Virus record (IMG/VR): IMGVR_UViG_3300044676_005109
Coordinates: 1 to 42,505 of that record
Source: a virus
Lineage: Duplodnaviria > Caudoviricetes
DNA: 42,505 nucleotides
Direction: 5' to 3' (one strand)
This document shows, piece by piece, positions 668 to 41,602 of the stretch (the stretch's first letter is position 1; each line of letters begins with the position of its first letter). A program made the translations under genes and the position numbers. The notes below the pieces were generated by a model. The model was not told the origin of the DNA. It saw nothing but the letters and a program-made list of their open reading frames with translations, and did no database searches.

Positions 668-888
668 TGGAATATCAGTTGTTGTTTAACATAATTATAG
701 CGGTGGCCGGATTCCTTGGTGGGGTGCTGGTCAATCGTCTGTTTGGCACGTTAGATAAGATAAACGACGATCTTAAACAGATACCTGAGAAATATGTTGC
801 CAAGGATGATTTCCGCGAAGACATGCGCGAGATTAAAGAAATGCTTGGTGCAATCTTCAAGAGACTAGAGAACAAGGCCGACAAATGA
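667..888 (+). CDS. small membrane protein (N-terminal TM plus coiled coil; holin/haemolysin-like)
   Basis: LLFNIIIAVAGFLGGVLV followed by YVAKDDFREDM..IK, a pattern common in phage lysis-region proteins; coupled start and stop. Confidence 0.7.
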   Translation: MEYQLLFNIIIAVAGFLGGVLVNRLFGTLDKINDDLKQIPEKYVAKDDFREDMREIKEMLGAIFKRLENKADK

Positions 889-1658
889 AACTTGATCCCG
901 TACTGCTCAATATGGCCTGTAGCTGGGCTATGAAGGCTTACAATGACAAGAACAAAGACGCTATCAAAATCGAAAGTAAGTGGACATCTACTACAGTATA
1001 TATAGCGAAACGTAAGTCTATCGATGTCATAGCCTTCAGGGGTACACAGCAGGGCAGGGATTGGTTAACAGATGCTTTGGTAGTACCCGTGCCATACGCG
1101 GGTAGACTGTGCCACGGTGGGTTTGCTATGGCCCACAAGTCAGTCTGGAAAGAAGTTAAGAAACACATTGACCCCAAGAAACGCACCTTGATCTGCGGCC
1201 ATAGCCTTGGTGGTGCGCTGGCAGAACTCTCTGCCTCTATGTTGAACGGTAAGCACGACAACATAAACTTGATTACCTTCGGTAAGCCGAACGTGTTTTT
1301 CAAGGGCTTCAAGAAGCCAATGACTCTTGATAATCAAATCTCCTGTGTGCAGGGCAGCGATATGGTGGCTAGAATCCCACGCTTTTGCTACGGCCCCTCA
1401 AGCTCACAGACTATGCTGTACTTCAGCAATACCGGCCCTGACTACATAAACCCCAGCAAAGACACCAGAGTTGCTGACAGGGGTGACCTGAGAGACCGGA
1501 TAGCTGACCACATGATGGACGGCTACAAGGAAAGGCTGAAAGAGTTTCTGGATGAGCAAGAAGCACAAGCCAATAAAGTAGTGCAAATGAGTAGGGACAA
1601 AAAACTAGCTCGCAAAGAACTGGAGGATATGGCGAATGAAATGTTTATTAAAGATTAG
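885..1658 (+). CDS. class 3 lipase (alpha/beta hydrolase)
   Basis: IAFRGT, CHGGF, nucleophile elbow GHSLGG, TFGKP, D-MV-RIP and distal DH. Confidence 0.9.
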   Translation: MKLDPVLLNMACSWAMKAYNDKNKDAIKIESKWTSTTVYIAKRKSIDVIAFRGTQQGRDWLTDALVVPVPYAGRLCHGGFAMAHKSVWKEVKKHIDPKKRTLICGHSLGGALAELSASMLNGKHDNINLITFGKPNVFFKGFKKPMTLDNQISCVQGSDMVARIPRFCYGPSSSQTMLYFSNTGPDYINPSKDTRVADRGDLRDRIADHMMDGYKERLKEFLDEQEAQANKVVQMSRDKKLARKELEDMANEMFIKD

Positions 1659-30476: not shown

Positions 30477-31472
30477 TTAAGCGGCCTGCTCAACCGCATC
30501 ATTAGTGTTAGGTAGCCCGGTCATGAAGTTGCTAGGGTATGAAGTGTTACCCTCTTCATCGACTACAGGCTGGAAGCTGTGCAGGAATGCAGCAGCTTTC
30601 TGAGCCTTGCCAGCAGCCTTGAAGAATAGATTCTCATCATTCTCCAGAGCCTTGATCCAGCTCGCCAGATACTGGGCGTGGTCAGGTGCTGGCGTATGCT
30701 CTATGCCGAGGTCAGCAGTCATGAATATTGCTGTCAACTCAGCGGTGAGTTCCTCGAACGCATAATTCTCAGTGGTGCGCTCATAGATCTCCGGGCGATT
30801 GAGGCGTGACTTGTTGCCCGTCCAGTGGCCCTCCTCATGAAAGAGAGTGCCGTAGTATTTCACCAGCTTTTCTTCTGGAGTATCGCCAATGAAGTCTTCT
30901 GGAGCAGGCATCACAATGTAGTCCGCGATGGGCTTGTAATAAGCCTGCGGGCTTCCGGGCTTGACCCTGATGTCAGCGCCAGTGTTTGCAATGAAGTCTT
31001 CAACATCTTGAAGCCTCTGCAACTCAGTGCGCTCCTCACCTTCAGACACTACAGGCTCAAGGCCGACTTGCTCTGCATTCCAGAGAGCCACTGCCCGGAA
31101 GAACAGCCCGGTCTTCTGGTTACCATTCTTATCCAGCTTGGGCTTACCTTTGCTGTCTTTCAGCTTCGTAGGCATAGGCGTCAGGACATAGGCGGTAGCC
31201 TTCTCACCCTTGGGGACAGGCGTGTCGGTAGACTCCCAGCCCTTGTAGGTTGACCAGCGGGTGTCGGTGAACCCGTGCTCCTCTGCTGCTATCCAGAGTA
31301 GGAACACGTTGCCGCCAGTGTATACGTTGCCGGTGACGCAGTTATGGTGAGCGCCGTTGGCAATCTGTCCAGCCCAAGGCTTGACCCAGCCAGTACCGTG
31401 AGTTTTCATCTGCTCCAGCACCTTGCGGGTGAGGTCAGCGCGAGGGTTGCGTTTAACTTTTGATGTAGCCAT
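30477..31472 (-). CDS. ardC: ArdC-family antirestriction protein (ssDNA-binding domain plus zincin-like domain)
   Basis: W.KPW, N.VTG..Y.G.N..LL, W.TYK.W, KGEK, AYY.P..D.I.MP, YY.TLFHE.GHWTG..RLNR, YAFEEL.AEL, HA.YL.SW. Confidence 0.92.
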   Translation of the reverse strand: MATSKVKRNPRADLTRKVLEQMKTHGTGWVKPWAGQIANGAHHNCVTGNVYTGGNVFLLWIAAEEHGFTDTRWSTYKGWESTDTPVPKGEKATAYVLTPMPTKLKDSKGKPKLDKNGNQKTGLFFRAVALWNAEQVGLEPVVSEGEERTELQRLQDVEDFIANTGADIRVKPGSPQAYYKPIADYIVMPAPEDFIGDTPEEKLVKYYGTLFHEEGHWTGNKSRLNRPEIYERTTENYAFEELTAELTAIFMTADLGIEHTPAPDHAQYLASWIKALENDENLFFKAAGKAQKAAAFLHSFQPVVDEEGNTSYPSNFMTGLPNTNDAVEQAA

Positions 31473-31519
31473 TTTTCTCGTCTCCAAATCAAGAATGTCA
31501 AAGTGTAAAGGTTTGTCAA

Positions 31520-32008
31520 TCAAGCTGCAAGTTTGGCATCACTGCCCCACTTGCAGCCGGTGCGAAAGGTTATGACGCGCACACTGTGCGCTCCAGCAAG
31601 GCCGTTACCGCTGCCCGCTGTGCAGACCCAAGCCGGGGCCAGCTCTTGGCGCTCACTGAGGCCCAGCTTACGCTGTACTGTGGAACGCTTGCCGATGGGA
31701 ATGAAGGCGCGACCGCCAGTGAGGTGCTGATCGCAATCATCAATCAGCCAGACTGACCCGTACTGACCATTGACGATCTTGGCTCTAACGCGAGTGTCGC
31801 CAGAGTACAGCCCGGTGAAGGTATCGAAACCTTCCTGCCTGCAGATTCGGGCCTTCTCTTGGTTCAGGCCAGCGGTAATACCACTGGCCCACTGCGAGAC
31901 AAACCCGTCAGTGTCGCACCGCTCAAATGAGTCGCTGGCTTCCTGAAGGTTTTGAGAGGCAGCAGCCTCATATCGTGCAGCCTCTGCTGCGAAGTCTTTG
32001 ATTTCCAT
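31520..32008 (-). CDS. hypothetical phage early protein
   Basis: 162 aa, GAGG RBS; SFERCDTDGFVSQWA motif. Confidence 0.75.
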   Translation of the reverse strand: MEIKDFAAEAARYEAAASQNLQEASDSFERCDTDGFVSQWASGITAGLNQEKARICRQEGFDTFTGLYSGDTRVRAKIVNGQYGSVWLIDDCDQHLTGGRAFIPIGKRSTVQRKLGLSERQELAPAWVCTAGSGNGLAGAHSVRVITFRTGCKWGSDAKLAA

Positions 32009-32040
32009 AATGATTCCTCGGTTTGTTGATTGAATTAGAT

Positions 32041-32098
32041 GCGGGGATTGAGGCCCGAGACTTACGCCTTTGACGGCTCGGTCAACCTCACGCCCCCG
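32041..32098 (-). other. long interrupted stem-loop upstream of an early gene
   Basis: Nested pairings CGGGG/CCCCG, TGAGG/CCTCA, CCGAG/CTCGG and an inner GCC/GGC hairpin. Confidence 0.6.
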
Positions 32099-32115
32099 AC
32101 TTTAAAGCTTTGCGA

Positions 32116-32349
32116 TTACTCAAGCGCCTCCTCTAGAGACCTGATCAAGTTGACTGCGAACTCGTCAGCTTCAATCAGCCCGGAGAAACAGGAACCCTCA
32201 GCGGTGTCTAGAAAGGCGCTGTGCAGAAAAACCCGGAATGGGCGCTCATAACCCCGGCTGACATCGAATGTCACGGTGACAGTCAGTCCCTTGTCGTTGG
32301 TATATCTGCTGATTTCCTGCGCTTTTGCGCGGTTAGTTTGCTTATCCAT
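32116..32349 (-). CDS. hypothetical protein
   Basis: ATG with AGGGGG RBS. Confidence 0.6.
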   Translation of the reverse strand: MDKQTNRAKAQEISRYTNDKGLTVTVTFDVSRGYERPFRVFLHSAFLDTAEGSCFSGLIEADEFAVNLIRSLEEALE

Positions 32350-32352
32350 TGA

Positions 32353-32559
32353 TTACCCCCTGCAATCGATTGTGATTTGAATGTCTTCCTCCTCAGAGCA
32401 TACGCAACGCTGCACAGCTTCCAAGGCGTCAGATTGAGTGGCGAAAATGTTGCTGAATCGCCCGTTAAAATGGACCGCCCAGCCTGACAGCGGGGCATAG
32501 TGAAAATTAGCCTGATAGTCTGCGTCAGGTCTGGCGCGTGAAATTATTACCTGATTCAT
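32353..32559 (-). CDS. hypothetical protein
   Basis: ATG 32559 with AGGAG RBS. Confidence 0.6.
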   Translation of the reverse strand: MNQVIISRARPDADYQANFHYAPLSGWAVHFNGRFSNIFATQSDALEAVQRCVCSEEEDIQITIDCRG

Positions 32560-32747
32560 GATCGCTCCTGATAGTCGTTTGGAAAGTCTCTGATAAAACT
32601 TTTGATAAGACTTACACGCCACTGCAATTGCTCATCGTTGAGCGAGCTTAAGTATTCACGGTTCATTGTTTGCTTTATTAAATAAACGATGTGATCGTTT
32701 TTTAAGCAATATTCAATAGCAGATTCTCTGTCCATTTTGTGAGCCCC

Positions 32748-32936
32748 TCACAGTATCGGTTGTTTGTTCAGGCGAACGGTCACGCTGTCCGCATTCCATT
32801 TTTTTTCAAACTCTCGCTTGAGCTGTGCCAGCTCTGGAGTACCCGGCTGGTATAGCTTGACGCCAGTGAATTGGCAAAGCTTTGCCCAGCTCAGATATTT
32901 GGTCTTGCCGTTTTTAACGATCTCAAAATCAATCAT
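32748..32936 (-). CDS. hypothetical protein
   Basis: ATG with AGGGGGAG RBS. Confidence 0.6.
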   Translation of the reverse strand: MIDFEIVKNGKTKYLSWAKLCQFTGVKLYQPGTPELAQLKREFEKKWNADSVTVRLNKQPIL

Positions 32937-32945
32937 GTCTCCCCC

Positions 32946-33149
32946 TTACCATCCGGCAACGCAAAAATGACTATTGTTTAAGCAGTATGGCTGAGCATCC
33001 CACCCGATAAAAACTAGGTGATATCTACCCTCGCTGTTCACTGCGACAATCCACTTGAACTCTTCTAAGGCGGCAGGATCAGCCGCTTTGATTGCATTCG
33101 CTTCGGTCTTATAGGTTTTGCAACCCTTTGTGTTTGGAAATAATCTCAT
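32946..33149 (-). CDS. hypothetical protein
   Basis: GGAG RBS; KTYKTEANAIKA...GRY..VF.G pattern of small phage early proteins. Confidence 0.7.
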   Translation of the reverse strand: MRLFPNTKGCKTYKTEANAIKAADPAALEEFKWIVAVNSEGRYHLVFIGWDAQPYCLNNSHFCVAGW

Positions 33150-33194
33150 CTCATTTCTCCGGTTTATTTAAAAAATTTGTTGGTTGTTAATCAT

Positions 33195-33463
33195 CAGATT
33201 TATCGATAGATGCCACTGTCGGCAATGGCATCGACTATAAATCTGTTCGCTCCTCTAGACCGCACGATTGTGAAGTCACCCCGTTGCCAGCCGAAGCTGA
33301 GACTGCTCTAGGCAGTCAGAGGGGCTCTCGCCCCAATCTCAGGAGTCCGACCATATACCGGGACCGTTCGGTTTGCCGCGAACCCTGTCACTTGCGAGAG
33401 GCATAGTCAGCTTCAGCAGTGGGGCCAATCCAATTTGTCGTGCGACTCAGCCAATCCGTTGGC
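33195..33463 (-). ncRNA. putative structured RNA of unknown family (multibranch domain plus a downstream long hairpin)
   Basis: Many nested inverted repeats; G-U pairs and GAGA/UUCG loops are valid on the minus strand; fills an intergenic gap. Confidence 0.65.
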
Positions 33464-33527
33464 CGTCAAACTGTATGCGAACTATAACGACTATAAAGAT
33501 TATTAGACCAGTCAAAATATTAAATTG

Positions 33528-33782
33528 TCACAATTTGTCACAATTGTCCTCATGCCACCGTTCCACTGCCGCATCGATGTCTGCCTGCCACCACTCCAGC
33601 GATACCCGATTGATGCCACCTGTCGGCCCGACAATGCGCGGCGGCTCCGGGGAATCAGCCGGGGCTTCATTTGTCCACGTTGCATAAAAGTAAGTCAGGC
33701 CACAGTCGCTGCCTCTCACTATCTGATAGTCAGGCAGTGCAGCTTGCAGGTAGGCGTTCAGTTGTTTCAGGGTGATTCTCAT
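33528..33782 (-). CDS. hypothetical protein (first gene of the leftward early block)
   Basis: GGAGG RBS before the ATG. Confidence 0.65.
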   Translation of the reverse strand: MRITLKQLNAYLQAALPDYQIVRGSDCGLTYFYATWTNEAPADSPEPPRIVGPTGGINRVSLEWWQADIDAAVERWHEDNCDKL

Positions 33783-33866
33783 ATCAATTCCTCCATTGCT
33801 TCACTTTGATTGACGGGTGAGTCCAGATTTATTCCCAGAAATATCAAAAAAATGTCAGAAATATTG

Positions 33867-33976
33867 TAAGTGTCTGATGTATAAAGATATTTAATTTATA
33901 GTGAGTGACATGACCCCTTTTTTCTGTTCTAAGTATTTGAAATATAAAGGGAATCAGTAAGTCATTGATATTAAAG
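33867..33976. promoter_or_regulatory. three IHF-like sites in an AT-rich tract
   Basis: TAAGTGTCTGATGTATAAAG (33867), TAAGTATTTGAAATATAAAG (33930) and TAAGTCATTGATATTAAAG (33958); the third is an exact match to YAANNNNTTGATW. Confidence 0.6.
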
Positions 33977-34122
33977 GAAATCAACGATATCAATAAATTC
34001 GATGCAGGGTCAGGGGTCAGTCTAAAATCGCTTAGAACGGCTCTCAGGGCTTCTGAAGACTATTGTTTAAAAATTGAACAATGTTGGTTAAAATTTGATC
34101 AATCAACAGTGGAGTGATTCAA

Positions 34123-34593
34123 ATGGGCAAGCCAAGATCAGGATTAACCGATAAGCAAAGGCTATTCGCTATGTGCGTGGGAAGCCGGGGAATGACGTAT
34201 GCAGACGGCTACCGGGAAGCGTATGACTGTGACGATATGTCTGCAGCATCTATTAGGAGGGAAGCCAGCAAGCTTATGGCGAACCCCGACATAACCTCTA
34301 TGGTGAACAGGCTAATAGCCGCTAAGGAGGGGCAGATACAAGCATCTGCCGTCTCTGACAGAGAGAAAGTCCTGAGTAAGCTCCGGGGCTGGATGGAATC
34401 CGCTGAGGGCGCCGATGCAATGAAGATCAGGTCAGCCGAGCTGCTGGGCAAGTCGGTTGGCCTATTCAAGGATGTAGTCGAACAAAAGAGCACTGCAAAC
34501 TCTGCTGAAGTGGAGGCCAAGCTGCAGGCCAAGCTTGAACAACTGTTGGCAAGCGAACAGGATCAGCCTAGTGAGGCAAGTGATCTGCATTAG
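34123..34593 (+). CDS. terS: terminase small subunit
   Basis: LT.KQ..FA, AY, A.KL..NP.I HTH region and R..ELLGK..GLF; GGAG RBS before ATG 34123. Confidence 0.85.
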   Translation: MGKPRSGLTDKQRLFAMCVGSRGMTYADGYREAYDCDDMSAASIRREASKLMANPDITSMVNRLIAAKEGQIQASAVSDREKVLSKLRGWMESAEGADAMKIRSAELLGKSVGLFKDVVEQKSTANSAEVEAKLQAKLEQLLASEQDQPSEASDLH

Positions 34594-34605
34594 TCTATTG
34601 TGATA

Positions 34606-34754
34606 CCTGACACCTTTAACATAATTGACATGACCCTTCCTTAGTAATAGTCCTGACCCCTTTCATATGTGTGACATGACCCTTACATAATAATACACAT
34701 GACACCTTCTATGTGTGCAACATGACCCCCCTTAAATAATACACTTGACCCCCG
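34606..34754 (+). repeat. seven direct repeats C[ACT]TGAC[AC]CC-like at an exact 23-bp period
   Basis: TGAC at 34608, 34631, 34654, 34677, 34700, 34723 and 34746, with variable AT-rich spacers. Confidence 0.9.
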
Positions 34755-34892
34755 TGACAGGTGTCACACTTTGATACCCCTCCCCCCCTTGACAGGTTGG
34801 CCGGGTATATATGCTATATACATAGTGATCCACTCAAATAATTCCCTAGTTTTGACGCCACCCCCACCCTAATTTCTGGGAATGCCTAATGA

Positions 34893-34905
34893 AATCAATA
34901 ACTTG
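34893..34905 (+). promoter_or_regulatory. IHF consensus site
   Basis: AATCAATAACTTG matches WATCAANNNNTTR exactly. Confidence 0.6.
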
Positions 34906-35033
34906 CGTCGCGGTTGGTCAAAATTTGTACAGAAAAAGGGGTAGGAATCCTAGTACCCCCAAAAATTTTGCAAAAAAAGTTGACCTTGCCCTTGTCAATA
35001 TGCAAAATATGTTAAAATTTCTTACAGTTGTGT

Positions 35034-35271
35034 CTAAGGATTACCCTTACTAAGGATTACCCTTGGCTAGGTACACCTAGCATTACGCTAGGTAATCCTT
35101 ATTTTTTTTTAGTAAAAAAAATAGAAAAGTAATTCTTATCTAGGGTAATCCTTACTAGGGTAATCCTTAGGTCAAAGTAGCTATAGGTATAACTCTGGGT
35201 ACAGGTATAGCTGTAACTAAAACTATAGCTATAAGTTGGAATTAGAGTAATCCTTACTAGGTTAATCCTTA
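35034..35271. repeat. direct and inverted repeat cluster (TAAGGATTACCCT / AGGGTAATCCTTA)
   Basis: Two tandem copies at 35034 and 35050; about six opposite-orientation copies near 35088, 35126, 35140, 35155, 35243 and 35257. Confidence 0.9.
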
Positions 35272-41218: not shown

Positions 41219-41602
41219 ATGAGCGAAGCTGCTACGGTTGAGGTTGGTTCTGTTGAGGCAGATACAAAGCCTTCTCAGTTACCTGAGCCTACTGGATACA
41301 AGATATTAATCGCGCTGCCTGAAGTTGATGAAAAGACAGAGGGCGGAATCATTAAGGCACAAGAAACAATGCACCTTGAAGAGGTGGGTTCCATTGTGGG
41401 ATTTGTGATGAAGCTTGGCCCGGATGCTTATGAAGACAAAAAGAAGTTCCCTAACGGTGCTTATTGCAAGGAAGGGGATTTTGTTTTGATGAGGTCTTAT
41501 TCTGGGACTCGGTTCTCGATACACGGGAAAGAGTTCAGGCTGATTAATGACGATAGCGTTGAGGCTGTTATTGACGATCCAAGAGGCATTAGGAAGGTAT
41601 GA
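41219..41602 (+). CDS. groES: co-chaperonin GroES (Cpn10)
   Basis: P.GYKILI, EKTEGGII, G.V.K.GP.AY, K.GD.V, YSGT and RLINDD.V.AV. Confidence 0.9.
   Translation: MSEAATVEVGSVEADTKPSQLPEPTGYKILIALPEVDEKTEGGIIKAQETMHLEEVGSIVGFVMKLGPDAYEDKKKFPNGAYCKEGDFVLMRSYSGTRFSIHGKEFRLINDDSVEAVIDDPRGIRKV

What the first reader, a model, noticed from the sequence alone, without database searches (positions are those of the whole stretch)
33261..33463. About 190-nt multibranch structured RNA in the early (ArdC) region
Seen on the minus strand: 5' hairpin GCCAA-CGGA-TTGGC; closing stem CGCACGA/TCGTGCG; GCCCC..TGC/GCA..GGGGT; TGAAGCTGA/TCAGCTTCG. These enclose a three-way arm (CAGG/CCTG with GTTCG/CGAAC and GGTCC/GGACT), GGGGC-GAGA-GCCCC and GACTGC-CTAGA-GCAGTC. 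Three G-U pairs and the GNRA loop favour the minus strand. An alternative CAGC-TTCG-GCTG hairpin competes with the TGAAGCTGA stem, suggesting a possible switch. I cannot match it to tRNA, tmRNA, hammerhead or a riboswitch I know. Inference: a novel phage ncRNA, such as a decoy/anti-defence RNA, an antiterminator like HK022 put, or an ssDNA structure.
Basis: partly seen in the sequence, partly recalled or inferred. Interest (0 to 1): 0.8.

Follow-up and report, generated by a model that had tools for sequence, protein, structure and literature searches.

The report
Swappable phage early non-coding RNA
A marine phage carries, just behind a predicted early promoter, a conserved folded RNA of a family missing from the standard RNA library; it is likely cut free from the early message and likely acts as an optional decoy against the host, since related phages swap it for unrelated RNAs or lack it.

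Summary
No Rfam match. A cloverleaf-like core at 33252-33370 covaries (93.6% of cells paired, 71 double changes, 0/500 shuffles). The 3' end is followed by a type III hammerhead (8 members) or a hairpin resembling T7 RNase III sites (9, including the window); 5' GGA-loop hairpins resemble CsrA sites. Sister phages carry unrelated RNAs or none in this slot, and the downstream gene varies. Best reading: an accessory RNA released from the first early transcript, acting in trans as a protein decoy (0.45); function is untested. Expression is not shown (inconclusive). The scan noted such swappable leader slots earlier on other DNA; this sequence had no look-alike there.

The parts
33481..33486 (-). 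Predicted sigma-70-type -10 hexamer (TATAGT) of the promoter that would start the RNA near 33474; a second TATAGT lies at 33490-33495, and the -35 element is weak in the window
   Evidence: Sequence; aligned upstream regions of 20 members show a -10-like hexamer at this position in most; the consensus scan did not list it. Start site is inferred.
33448..33465 (-). 5' hairpin with GGA in the loop (CsrA/RsmA-like site 1)
   Evidence: GGA inside a hairpin loop in the first 35 nt of 11 of 20 members versus 0-13.5% of shuffles; CsrA consensus from PMC7652899. Binding untested.
33426..33437 (-). Second GGA-loop hairpin (3-bp stem)
   Evidence: 30 of 30 cells paired in 10 members with one compensatory pair (A-U/G-C)
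33371..33425 (-). Variable 5' domain; holds CCUCU (33401-33397), a candidate partner of the 3'-terminal AGAGG
   Evidence: Present in 8 of 10 aligned full-length members, replaced by other modules elsewhere; 5'/3' closing helix not stronger than shuffles
33348..33366 (-). Core hairpin P2: 5-bp stem, 8-nt loop with conserved UAUA-like sequence
   Evidence: 94.1% paired, 3 of 5 pairs compensatory; recovered by RNAalifold; 20 of 20 pairs kept in four held-out members
33278..33347 (-). Core arm P3 (ACUCC/GGGGU with conserved NGAG / CAAN internal loop) carrying three variable hairpins: 33334-33321, 33317-33301, 33299-33288
   Evidence: P3 100% paired, one pair C-G/U-A compensatory (13/4 members); hairpins 82-93% paired. 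RNAalifold prefers pairing CUY with the 3' GAG instead, so P3 is less certain.
33258..33277 (-). Core hairpin P4 (GACUUCAC/GUGCGGUC) with variable distal loop
   Evidence: 96.6% paired, 3 compensatory pairs incl. G-C 11 / A-U 6; recovered by RNAalifold
33252..33257 (-). Invariant 3' end of the core (U-N-GAGG)
   Evidence: Invariant columns in 17 of 17; covariance-model hit ends at 33252
33195..33245 (-). Long irregular hairpin resembling T7 early-region RNase III sites; predicted 3' processing site (replaced by a type III hammerhead in 8 relatives)
   Evidence: Fold and shared CAUU/AGUGG upper stem plus 3' UAU with three T7 intergenic hairpins; that those T7 hairpins are RNase III sites is recalled, the record does not annotate them

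Best explanation
This is a conserved structured non-coding element that occupies an exchangeable slot at the start of the phage's leftward small-gene operon; it is likely transcribed first from its own host-type promoter, likely cut free at its 3' end (by RNase III here, by a hammerhead in relatives), and likely acts in trans as a stable decoy that binds a host protein, for example a defence or RNA-processing factor. Shown: conservation, covariation, position, exchange with unrelated RNAs, the adjacent hammerhead or hairpin. Inferred: promoter use, start at about 33474, RNase III cutting near 33208 that would leave a protective 3' hairpin on an RNA of about 265 nt, CsrA binding to the 5' GGA hairpins as 5' protection. 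Guess by elimination: the decoy role; the target is unknown.
For: Covariation of the core (93.6%, 15 pairs and 71 cells with double changes; 4/500 and 0/500 shuffles; slid controls 32-48%), independent RNAalifold recovery of P2, P4 and two hairpins, 64 of 64 core pairs in four members not used for the alignment. 3' processing element in every member with flank held: type III hammerhead in 8, T7-like hairpin directly behind in 9, another element followed by such a hairpin in 4, one contig cut inside the hammerhead. A type III hammerhead cuts about 8 nt behind the core and leaves with the downstream message, the geometry expected for trimming an upstream RNA (sequence; ribozyme topology from established knowledge). 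An intrinsic terminator lies just upstream of the promoter in close relatives (3 of 5 by pattern; a variant visible in L203). First downstream ORF differs among members. On a 38-row TerS tree the family needs at least 6 changes, 4 forced by well-supported branches; sisters carry no RNA (L257) or unrelated RNAs (L017/L021, L036, L053). L259 has the same first gene as the window with no RNA.
Against: No evidence of transcription or ends: metatranscriptome contigs cover it only at depth 2-7, the same as the rest of the genome, and two run 26-32 nt upstream of the predicted start. No partner protein or target identified. The core is not the MFE fold of most members: forcing it costs 17 kcal/mol in the window, and P3 pairs have near-zero predicted probability in 17 of 18, so it must rely on tertiary contacts or a partner, or the model is partly wrong. 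Only 22 sequences in a handful of clades; compensatory changes are few independent events. Family found by motif patterns, which favour sequences that fit.
Confidence: 0.45

Rival explanations
1. Cis-acting leader: a put-like antiterminator or stabiliser that modifies RNA polymerase or the early message so that the small early genes are fully expressed.
For: Promoter-proximal position at the head of a long operon; structured and conserved.
Against: Closest relatives express the same operon, ArdC included, without it (L257-L259); unrelated RNAs replace it; a hammerhead or hairpin would cut it from the message within about 10-45 nt; it is about three times the size of HK022 put (size recalled).
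Confidence: 0.15
2. A new ribozyme class (self-cleaving or ligating) clustered with hammerheads in the early operon.
For: Invariant junction nucleotides with freely variable peripheral helices; neighbours are hammerheads, including further type I-like ones downstream in L224 and L243.
Against: A second cutter always sits right behind it, and nothing lies between promoter and core that would need release; no match to any Rfam ribozyme.
Confidence: 0.13
3. A two-state switch (CsrA- or ligand-controlled): a rod in which the 5' segments pair with the 3' strand versus the cloverleaf, controlling processing or downstream expression.
For: The rod pairs 90.7% of cells in 10 members (slid controls 30-56%), buries the second GGA hairpin, and is close to the MFE fold in the window.
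Against: Rod does not exceed shuffles (62/500 paired, 95/500 covariation); its 5' segments are absent from about half the family; no terminator or start codon is coupled to it and downstream genes vary.
Confidence: 0.12
4. A passenger: a mobile or selfish RNA module that spreads by recombination in a tolerant slot without benefit to the phage.
For: Patchy distribution and module shuffling.
Against: No mobility gene nearby, one copy in the window, strong purifying selection on structure.
Confidence: 0.1
5. A single-stranded DNA structure (entry promoter, priming or packaging signal).
For: Lies near the small-terminase gene, repeat arrays and an ArdC-containing early operon.
Against: Invariant G-U wobbles, adjacent hammerheads, core folds no better than shuffles as DNA (z -0.82; the RNA fold of the same piece is also unremarkable), absent from close relatives.
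Confidence: 0.03

Closest known systems
Hammerhead ribozymes flanking ardA in an Agrobacterium prophage (Perreault et al. 2011, PMC3088659; passages read)
   Same: Hammerheads in a phage polycistronic transcript next to an anti-restriction gene.
   Different: There the ribozymes flank protein genes; here the hammerhead (in relatives only) sits behind a structured RNA, and an RNase III-like hairpin can take its place. The window itself has no hammerhead.
Theta ribozymes beside phage tRNAs (Kienbeck et al. 2024, PMC10879173; abstract read)
   Same: A small ribozyme placed to make the 3' end of an upstream phage RNA.
   Different: Ribozyme is hammerhead type III, not HDV-like; the upstream RNA is not a tRNA.
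T7 early-region RNase III sites (sequence; site identity recalled; single-strand cutting leaving protective 3' hairpins from PMC1540722 and PMC3867540, passages)
   Same: 10-bp upper stem with CAUU/AGUGG followed by an internal loop starting UAU.
   Different: In T7 they separate mRNAs; here one closes a non-coding RNA. Cleavage not tested.
CsrA/RsmA-binding hairpins, e.g. flhDC 5' end; CsrB/Rsm sponge sRNAs (PMC7652899, passages)
   Same: One or two GGA-loop hairpins at the 5' end.
   Different: Only 1-2 sites, absent in some members; the conserved core is unrelated to Csr/Rsm sRNAs and no Rfam model matches.
Phage RNAs used in counter-defence, e.g. T5 tRNA-Tyr against retron Ec78 (10.1101/2023.03.15.532788, start of abstract in search listing); RNA anti-CRISPRs (recalled)
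   Same: Precedent for phage non-coding RNAs acting in trans against host defence.
   Different: No tRNA fold, no CRISPR-repeat likeness seen; analogy of role only.
HK022 put antiterminator (recalled)
   Same: Promoter-proximal structured RNA in a phage early operon.
   Different: Larger, multibranched, optional, and followed by a cut site.

Membership tests
Any Rfam 15 family | Covariance-model score at the gathering threshold | tested here: not met
   Window: 0 hits; 32000-35000 at E<=10: five weak hits, none over the core; 14 loci at gathering: 0; 12 loci at E<=1: only sub-threshold hammerheads elsewhere
tRNA / tmRNA | Cloverleaf with T-loop and anticodon arm, or tmRNA tag | tested here: not met
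   ARAGORN 0 genes in the window; P4 loop is variable in length
rRNA fragment or mimic | Profile similarity to 16S/23S/5S rRNA | tested here: not met
   nhmmer no hit, only scattered 9-11-mers; covariance model best 7 bits on the E. coli operon with filters off
Hammerhead ribozyme (the element itself) | CUGANGA and GAAA core around three stems | tested here: not met
   Descriptor found none in the window region L202
Hammerhead type III (3' neighbour in relatives) | Stem III-UH-stem I-CUGANGA-stem II-GAAA-stem III order | tested here: met
   Descriptor hits directly behind the core in L014, L040, L041, L045, L224, L235, L239, L243; below Rfam thresholds
Hammerhead type III (3' neighbour in relatives) | Self-cleavage | not testable with these tools
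   Needs in vitro transcription
T7-type RNase III site (3' hairpin) | Long irregular helix with T7-like upper stem and internal loop | tested here: met
   Side-by-side folds; of 12 minus-strand matches to the short motif in the window this one gave the most stable hairpin
T7-type RNase III site (3' hairpin) | Cleavage by RNase III | not testable with these tools
   Needs enzyme assay or end mapping
CsrB/RsmY-type sponge | Many GGA-loop hairpins as the main conserved feature | tested here: not met
   One or two sites, 5' only, missing in L224 and L243
put-like antiterminator | Terminator read-through in cis | not testable with these tools
   Distribution argues against
Riboswitch | Expression platform and consistent downstream gene class | tested here: not met
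   No terminator-like site in the element; first downstream ORFs differ; alternative fold lacks covariation
Candidate viral structured RNAs of Fremin et al. 2023 | Presence among their unnamed DNA-virus candidates | tested here: inconclusive
   Motif terms absent from the four readable supplementary files; five archive/PDF files could not be read

The most novel reading that the evidence does not exclude
This phage group keeps a hypervariable slot for RNA genes at the head of its first transcript, the RNA counterpart of anti-defence protein islands: at least five unrelated structured RNA families are swapped in and out, each cut free by a hammerhead or RNase III and capped by host CsrA, and this family is a new class of RNA decoy that neutralises a host defence or ribosome-associated protein.
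Probability: 0.3. Interest if true: 0.88.

Novelty: categorically new. Interest (0 to 1): 0.66.

Why it matters
Few phage non-coding RNAs have known jobs. A covarying RNA family with predicted defined ends, interchangeable 3' processing (ribozyme or RNase III) and gain/loss among near-identical phages is a ready test case for RNA-based host takeover or counter-defence. It also offers one explanation for hammerheads in phage early regions: releasing an upstream RNA product. Even if the decoy idea fails, the invariant junction is a candidate for a new ribozyme or RNA-protein module that can be tested by simple in vitro transcription. 'Categorically new' refers to the RNA family, which fits no known kind tested; the processing parts are known kinds.

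Tried and rejected
blastn of the window element against phage and plasmid records, and of two divergent members against phage records: no match. Exact-hairpin scan: 121 stretches, no new homologue by blastn/nhmmer. Chance pattern hits dropped after inspection: L204, L205, L210, L215, L216, L218, L223, L230, L253 from the bacterial genome collection (10.6 bits), L268. rRNA-mimic idea for this family: rejected. Homology to the other slot RNAs: none. HDV-like fold in the 5' domain: considered by eye, the needed P1/P3 partners are missing. Anticodon-loop mimicry by P2: loop triplet is not invariant (L234, L243). Overlapping plus-strand ORF 33373-33687: relatives show 1- and 2-nt indels there. Packaging-RNA role: absent from close relatives that have the same terminase. 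5'/3' closing helix: not stronger than shuffled 5' regions in any of 18 members. Metatranscriptomes: three runs of one study hold a 90-95% identical relative; contigs cover 33205-33500, 33252-33385 and 33286-33506 at depth 2-7, but 20-22 of 30 bins across 20 kb are also covered, so expression and ends are not shown. No protein fold or complex prediction was run: no partner protein is indicated.

Full report
Setting. The window is a 42.5-kb virus record, about 76% complete, of a tailed phage with terminases, portal, primase/helicase, Sak-like annealing protein, GroES and an ArdC-type anti-restriction gene at 30477-31523(-). Its large terminase is closest to pelagiphages HTVC027P/HTVC023P and phage DSL-LC04 at 52-56% identity; the host is not known. 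The finding lies in a gap between small leftward ORFs (33528-33782 and 32946-33149), about 750 nt from the divergently oriented small-terminase gene at 34114.

Observation. The minus strand folds at -84.7 kcal/mol, z -3.34; the plus strand at z -2.36. Rfam gives nothing over the element and ARAGORN nothing in the window.

Homologues. Eighty large-terminase loci (best 80 of 184) gave first hits by blastn/nhmmer. Motif scans of viral and metagenome contigs and small-terminase searches extended the set; chance hits were dropped as listed under Tried and rejected. A covariance model from 16 members searched over 100 sources gave 21 hits at 38.9-114.6 bits (16 are training sequences, 5 are not) and then nothing above 10.6 bits; L240, not among those sources, is one more variant, so 22 distinct sequences with the window. 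A small-terminase gene lies next to it, on the opposite strand, in 16 of 21 homologues; the other 5 are short contigs without a hit. No true member was found in the bacterial genome collection with one stringent pattern, nor in annotated phage or plasmid records.

Structure. The conserved core is 33370-33252(-): a 5-bp hairpin P2 with an 8-nt loop; one G; arm P3 (ACUYC/GRGNU, then an NGMG / CAAN internal loop) bearing one to several variable hairpins; hairpin P4; and an invariant 3' GAGG. On 17 sequences this structure pairs 93.6% of 467 cells, with 15 pairs and 71 cells changed on both sides (shuffles reaching these: 0/500, 4/500, 0/500; slid controls 32-48%). I drew it by eye from these sequences, so three checks matter. 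RNAalifold independently recovers P2, P4 and two of the hairpins but pairs CUY with the terminal GAG instead of P3. Four members left out of the alignment keep 64 of 64 core pairs, though P3/P4 letters were partly fixed by the search pattern. Against the model: the core alone has z -0.70, is not the MFE in most members, costs 17 kcal/mol to enforce in the window, and P3 has near-zero predicted probability in 17 of 18.

Ends. A -10-like hexamer precedes the element in most of 20 members examined, and close relatives have an intrinsic terminator just upstream of it, so the RNA likely has its own start, about 33474 in the window (inference). GGA-loop hairpins occur in the first 35 nt of 11 of 20 members by automatic folding versus 0-13.5% of shuffles, and four more have a GGA hairpin that the fold partly zips; these resemble CsrA sites, which protect the flhDC 5' end from RNase E (PMC7652899, passages). 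Behind the core, 8 members have a complete type III hammerhead pattern whose cut would fall about 8 nt after GAGG; 9, including the window, have a long hairpin whose upper stem and internal loop match three T7 early intergenic hairpins (that these are RNase III sites is recalled); 4 have another element followed by such a hairpin; one contig ends inside the hammerhead. Single-strand RNase III cuts leave protective 3' hairpins (PMC1540722, PMC3867540, passages). Two unrelated cutting devices in the same position are the strongest argument that the product is a discrete RNA.

Distribution. Reading the slot in 17 further terminase loci and 10 more showed no RNA in the closest small-terminase relatives L257-L259, which keep ArdC, and unrelated structured RNAs in others (L036/L053/L060/L068; L032/L048 with a hammerhead; L017/L021; L061/L064/L066); these assignments are by eye, and the model finds no homology to them. 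On a 38-row small-terminase tree (15 rows with this family; members without a usable terminase left out) the family needs 6 changes, 4 forced by well-supported branches, and near-identical terminases carry different RNAs. The first downstream ORF differs among members (18 called). ArdC was found near the RNA in only 2 of 9 loci checked.

Expression. Three metatranscriptome runs of one study hold a close relative, as contigs only; coverage of the element is no higher than elsewhere and two contigs extend upstream of the predicted start. Inconclusive.

Mechanism. Shown: a conserved, covarying, strand-specific structure in an exchangeable slot with an adjacent processing-type element. Inferred: first-made transcript, released and end-protected, acting in trans. 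The invariant unpaired nucleotides and weak thermodynamic stability of the core suggest a binding surface stabilised by a partner. Optional presence and replacement by unrelated RNAs is the pattern of accessory anti-host cargo, so a protein decoy is my best guess (0.45), ahead of a cis leader (0.15), a new ribozyme (0.13), a switch (0.12), a passenger (0.10) and an ssDNA signal (0.03).

Literature. Searches listed no paper describing this RNA or such a slot. Perreault et al. 2011 (passages) report hammerheads flanking ardA in a prophage; Kienbeck et al. 2024 (abstract) ribozymes beside phage tRNAs. An HTVC023P-type genome paper (PMC9599517) has no occurrence of ribozyme or non-coding terms (term search). 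A 2026 preprint on prokaryotic intergenic clusters (passages) does not mention phages. Fremin et al. 2023 list about 8,500 unnamed DNA-virus candidates; four supplementary files were searched without a hit and the archives that may hold the alignments were unreadable, so prior listing there cannot be excluded. Earlier notes of this scan describe similar hammerhead-released swappable leaders in other genomes; sequence and place look-ups found no look-alike of this family. I had reached the same reading before seeing them; they are not independent support.

Verdict. Interest 0.66.

Noticed in passing
L036, L053, L060/L281, L068/L280 (same slot, upstream of TerS, minus strand): A second, unrelated structured RNA family of about 250 nt. 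All four share a 10-mer with E. coli 23S rRNA at position 2592 (peptidyl-transferase region) and a nearby resembling stretch; could be chance or rRNA mimicry.
   Followed up: partly
L032 4227-5276, L048 637-1686 (minus strand): A third slot RNA followed directly by a type III hammerhead-like sequence (seen by eye).
   Followed up: no
L017, L021; L061, L064, L066; L290, L293, L294: Further unrelated structured leaders in the same slot, the L066 one about 500 nt; small modules (GGA hairpin, a CAGGGUG-loop hairpin, a GAGGU/ACCUC hairpin) recur across families.
   Followed up: no
L224 1343-1425, L243 1026-1107: Additional type I-like hammerheads further down the early operon, below Rfam thresholds.
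   Followed up: no
L056, L057, L073, L234, directly 3' of the core: A conserved roughly 75-nt two-stem element that is neither a canonical hammerhead nor a simple hairpin; possibly another small structured RNA or a degenerate ribozyme.
   Followed up: no
window 34606-34797: Three to four degenerate 46-nt tandem repeats just after the small-terminase gene; copy number varies in a relative. Possible packaging or replication signal.
   Followed up: no
window 35034-35271: Direct and inverted 14-16-nt repeats (CTAAGGATTACCCT family) upstream of the late operon; possible protein-binding sites.
   Followed up: no
window 885-1658 and 41219-41602: An esterase/lipase-like gene in the lysis region and a GroES-like co-chaperonin.
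   Followed up: no
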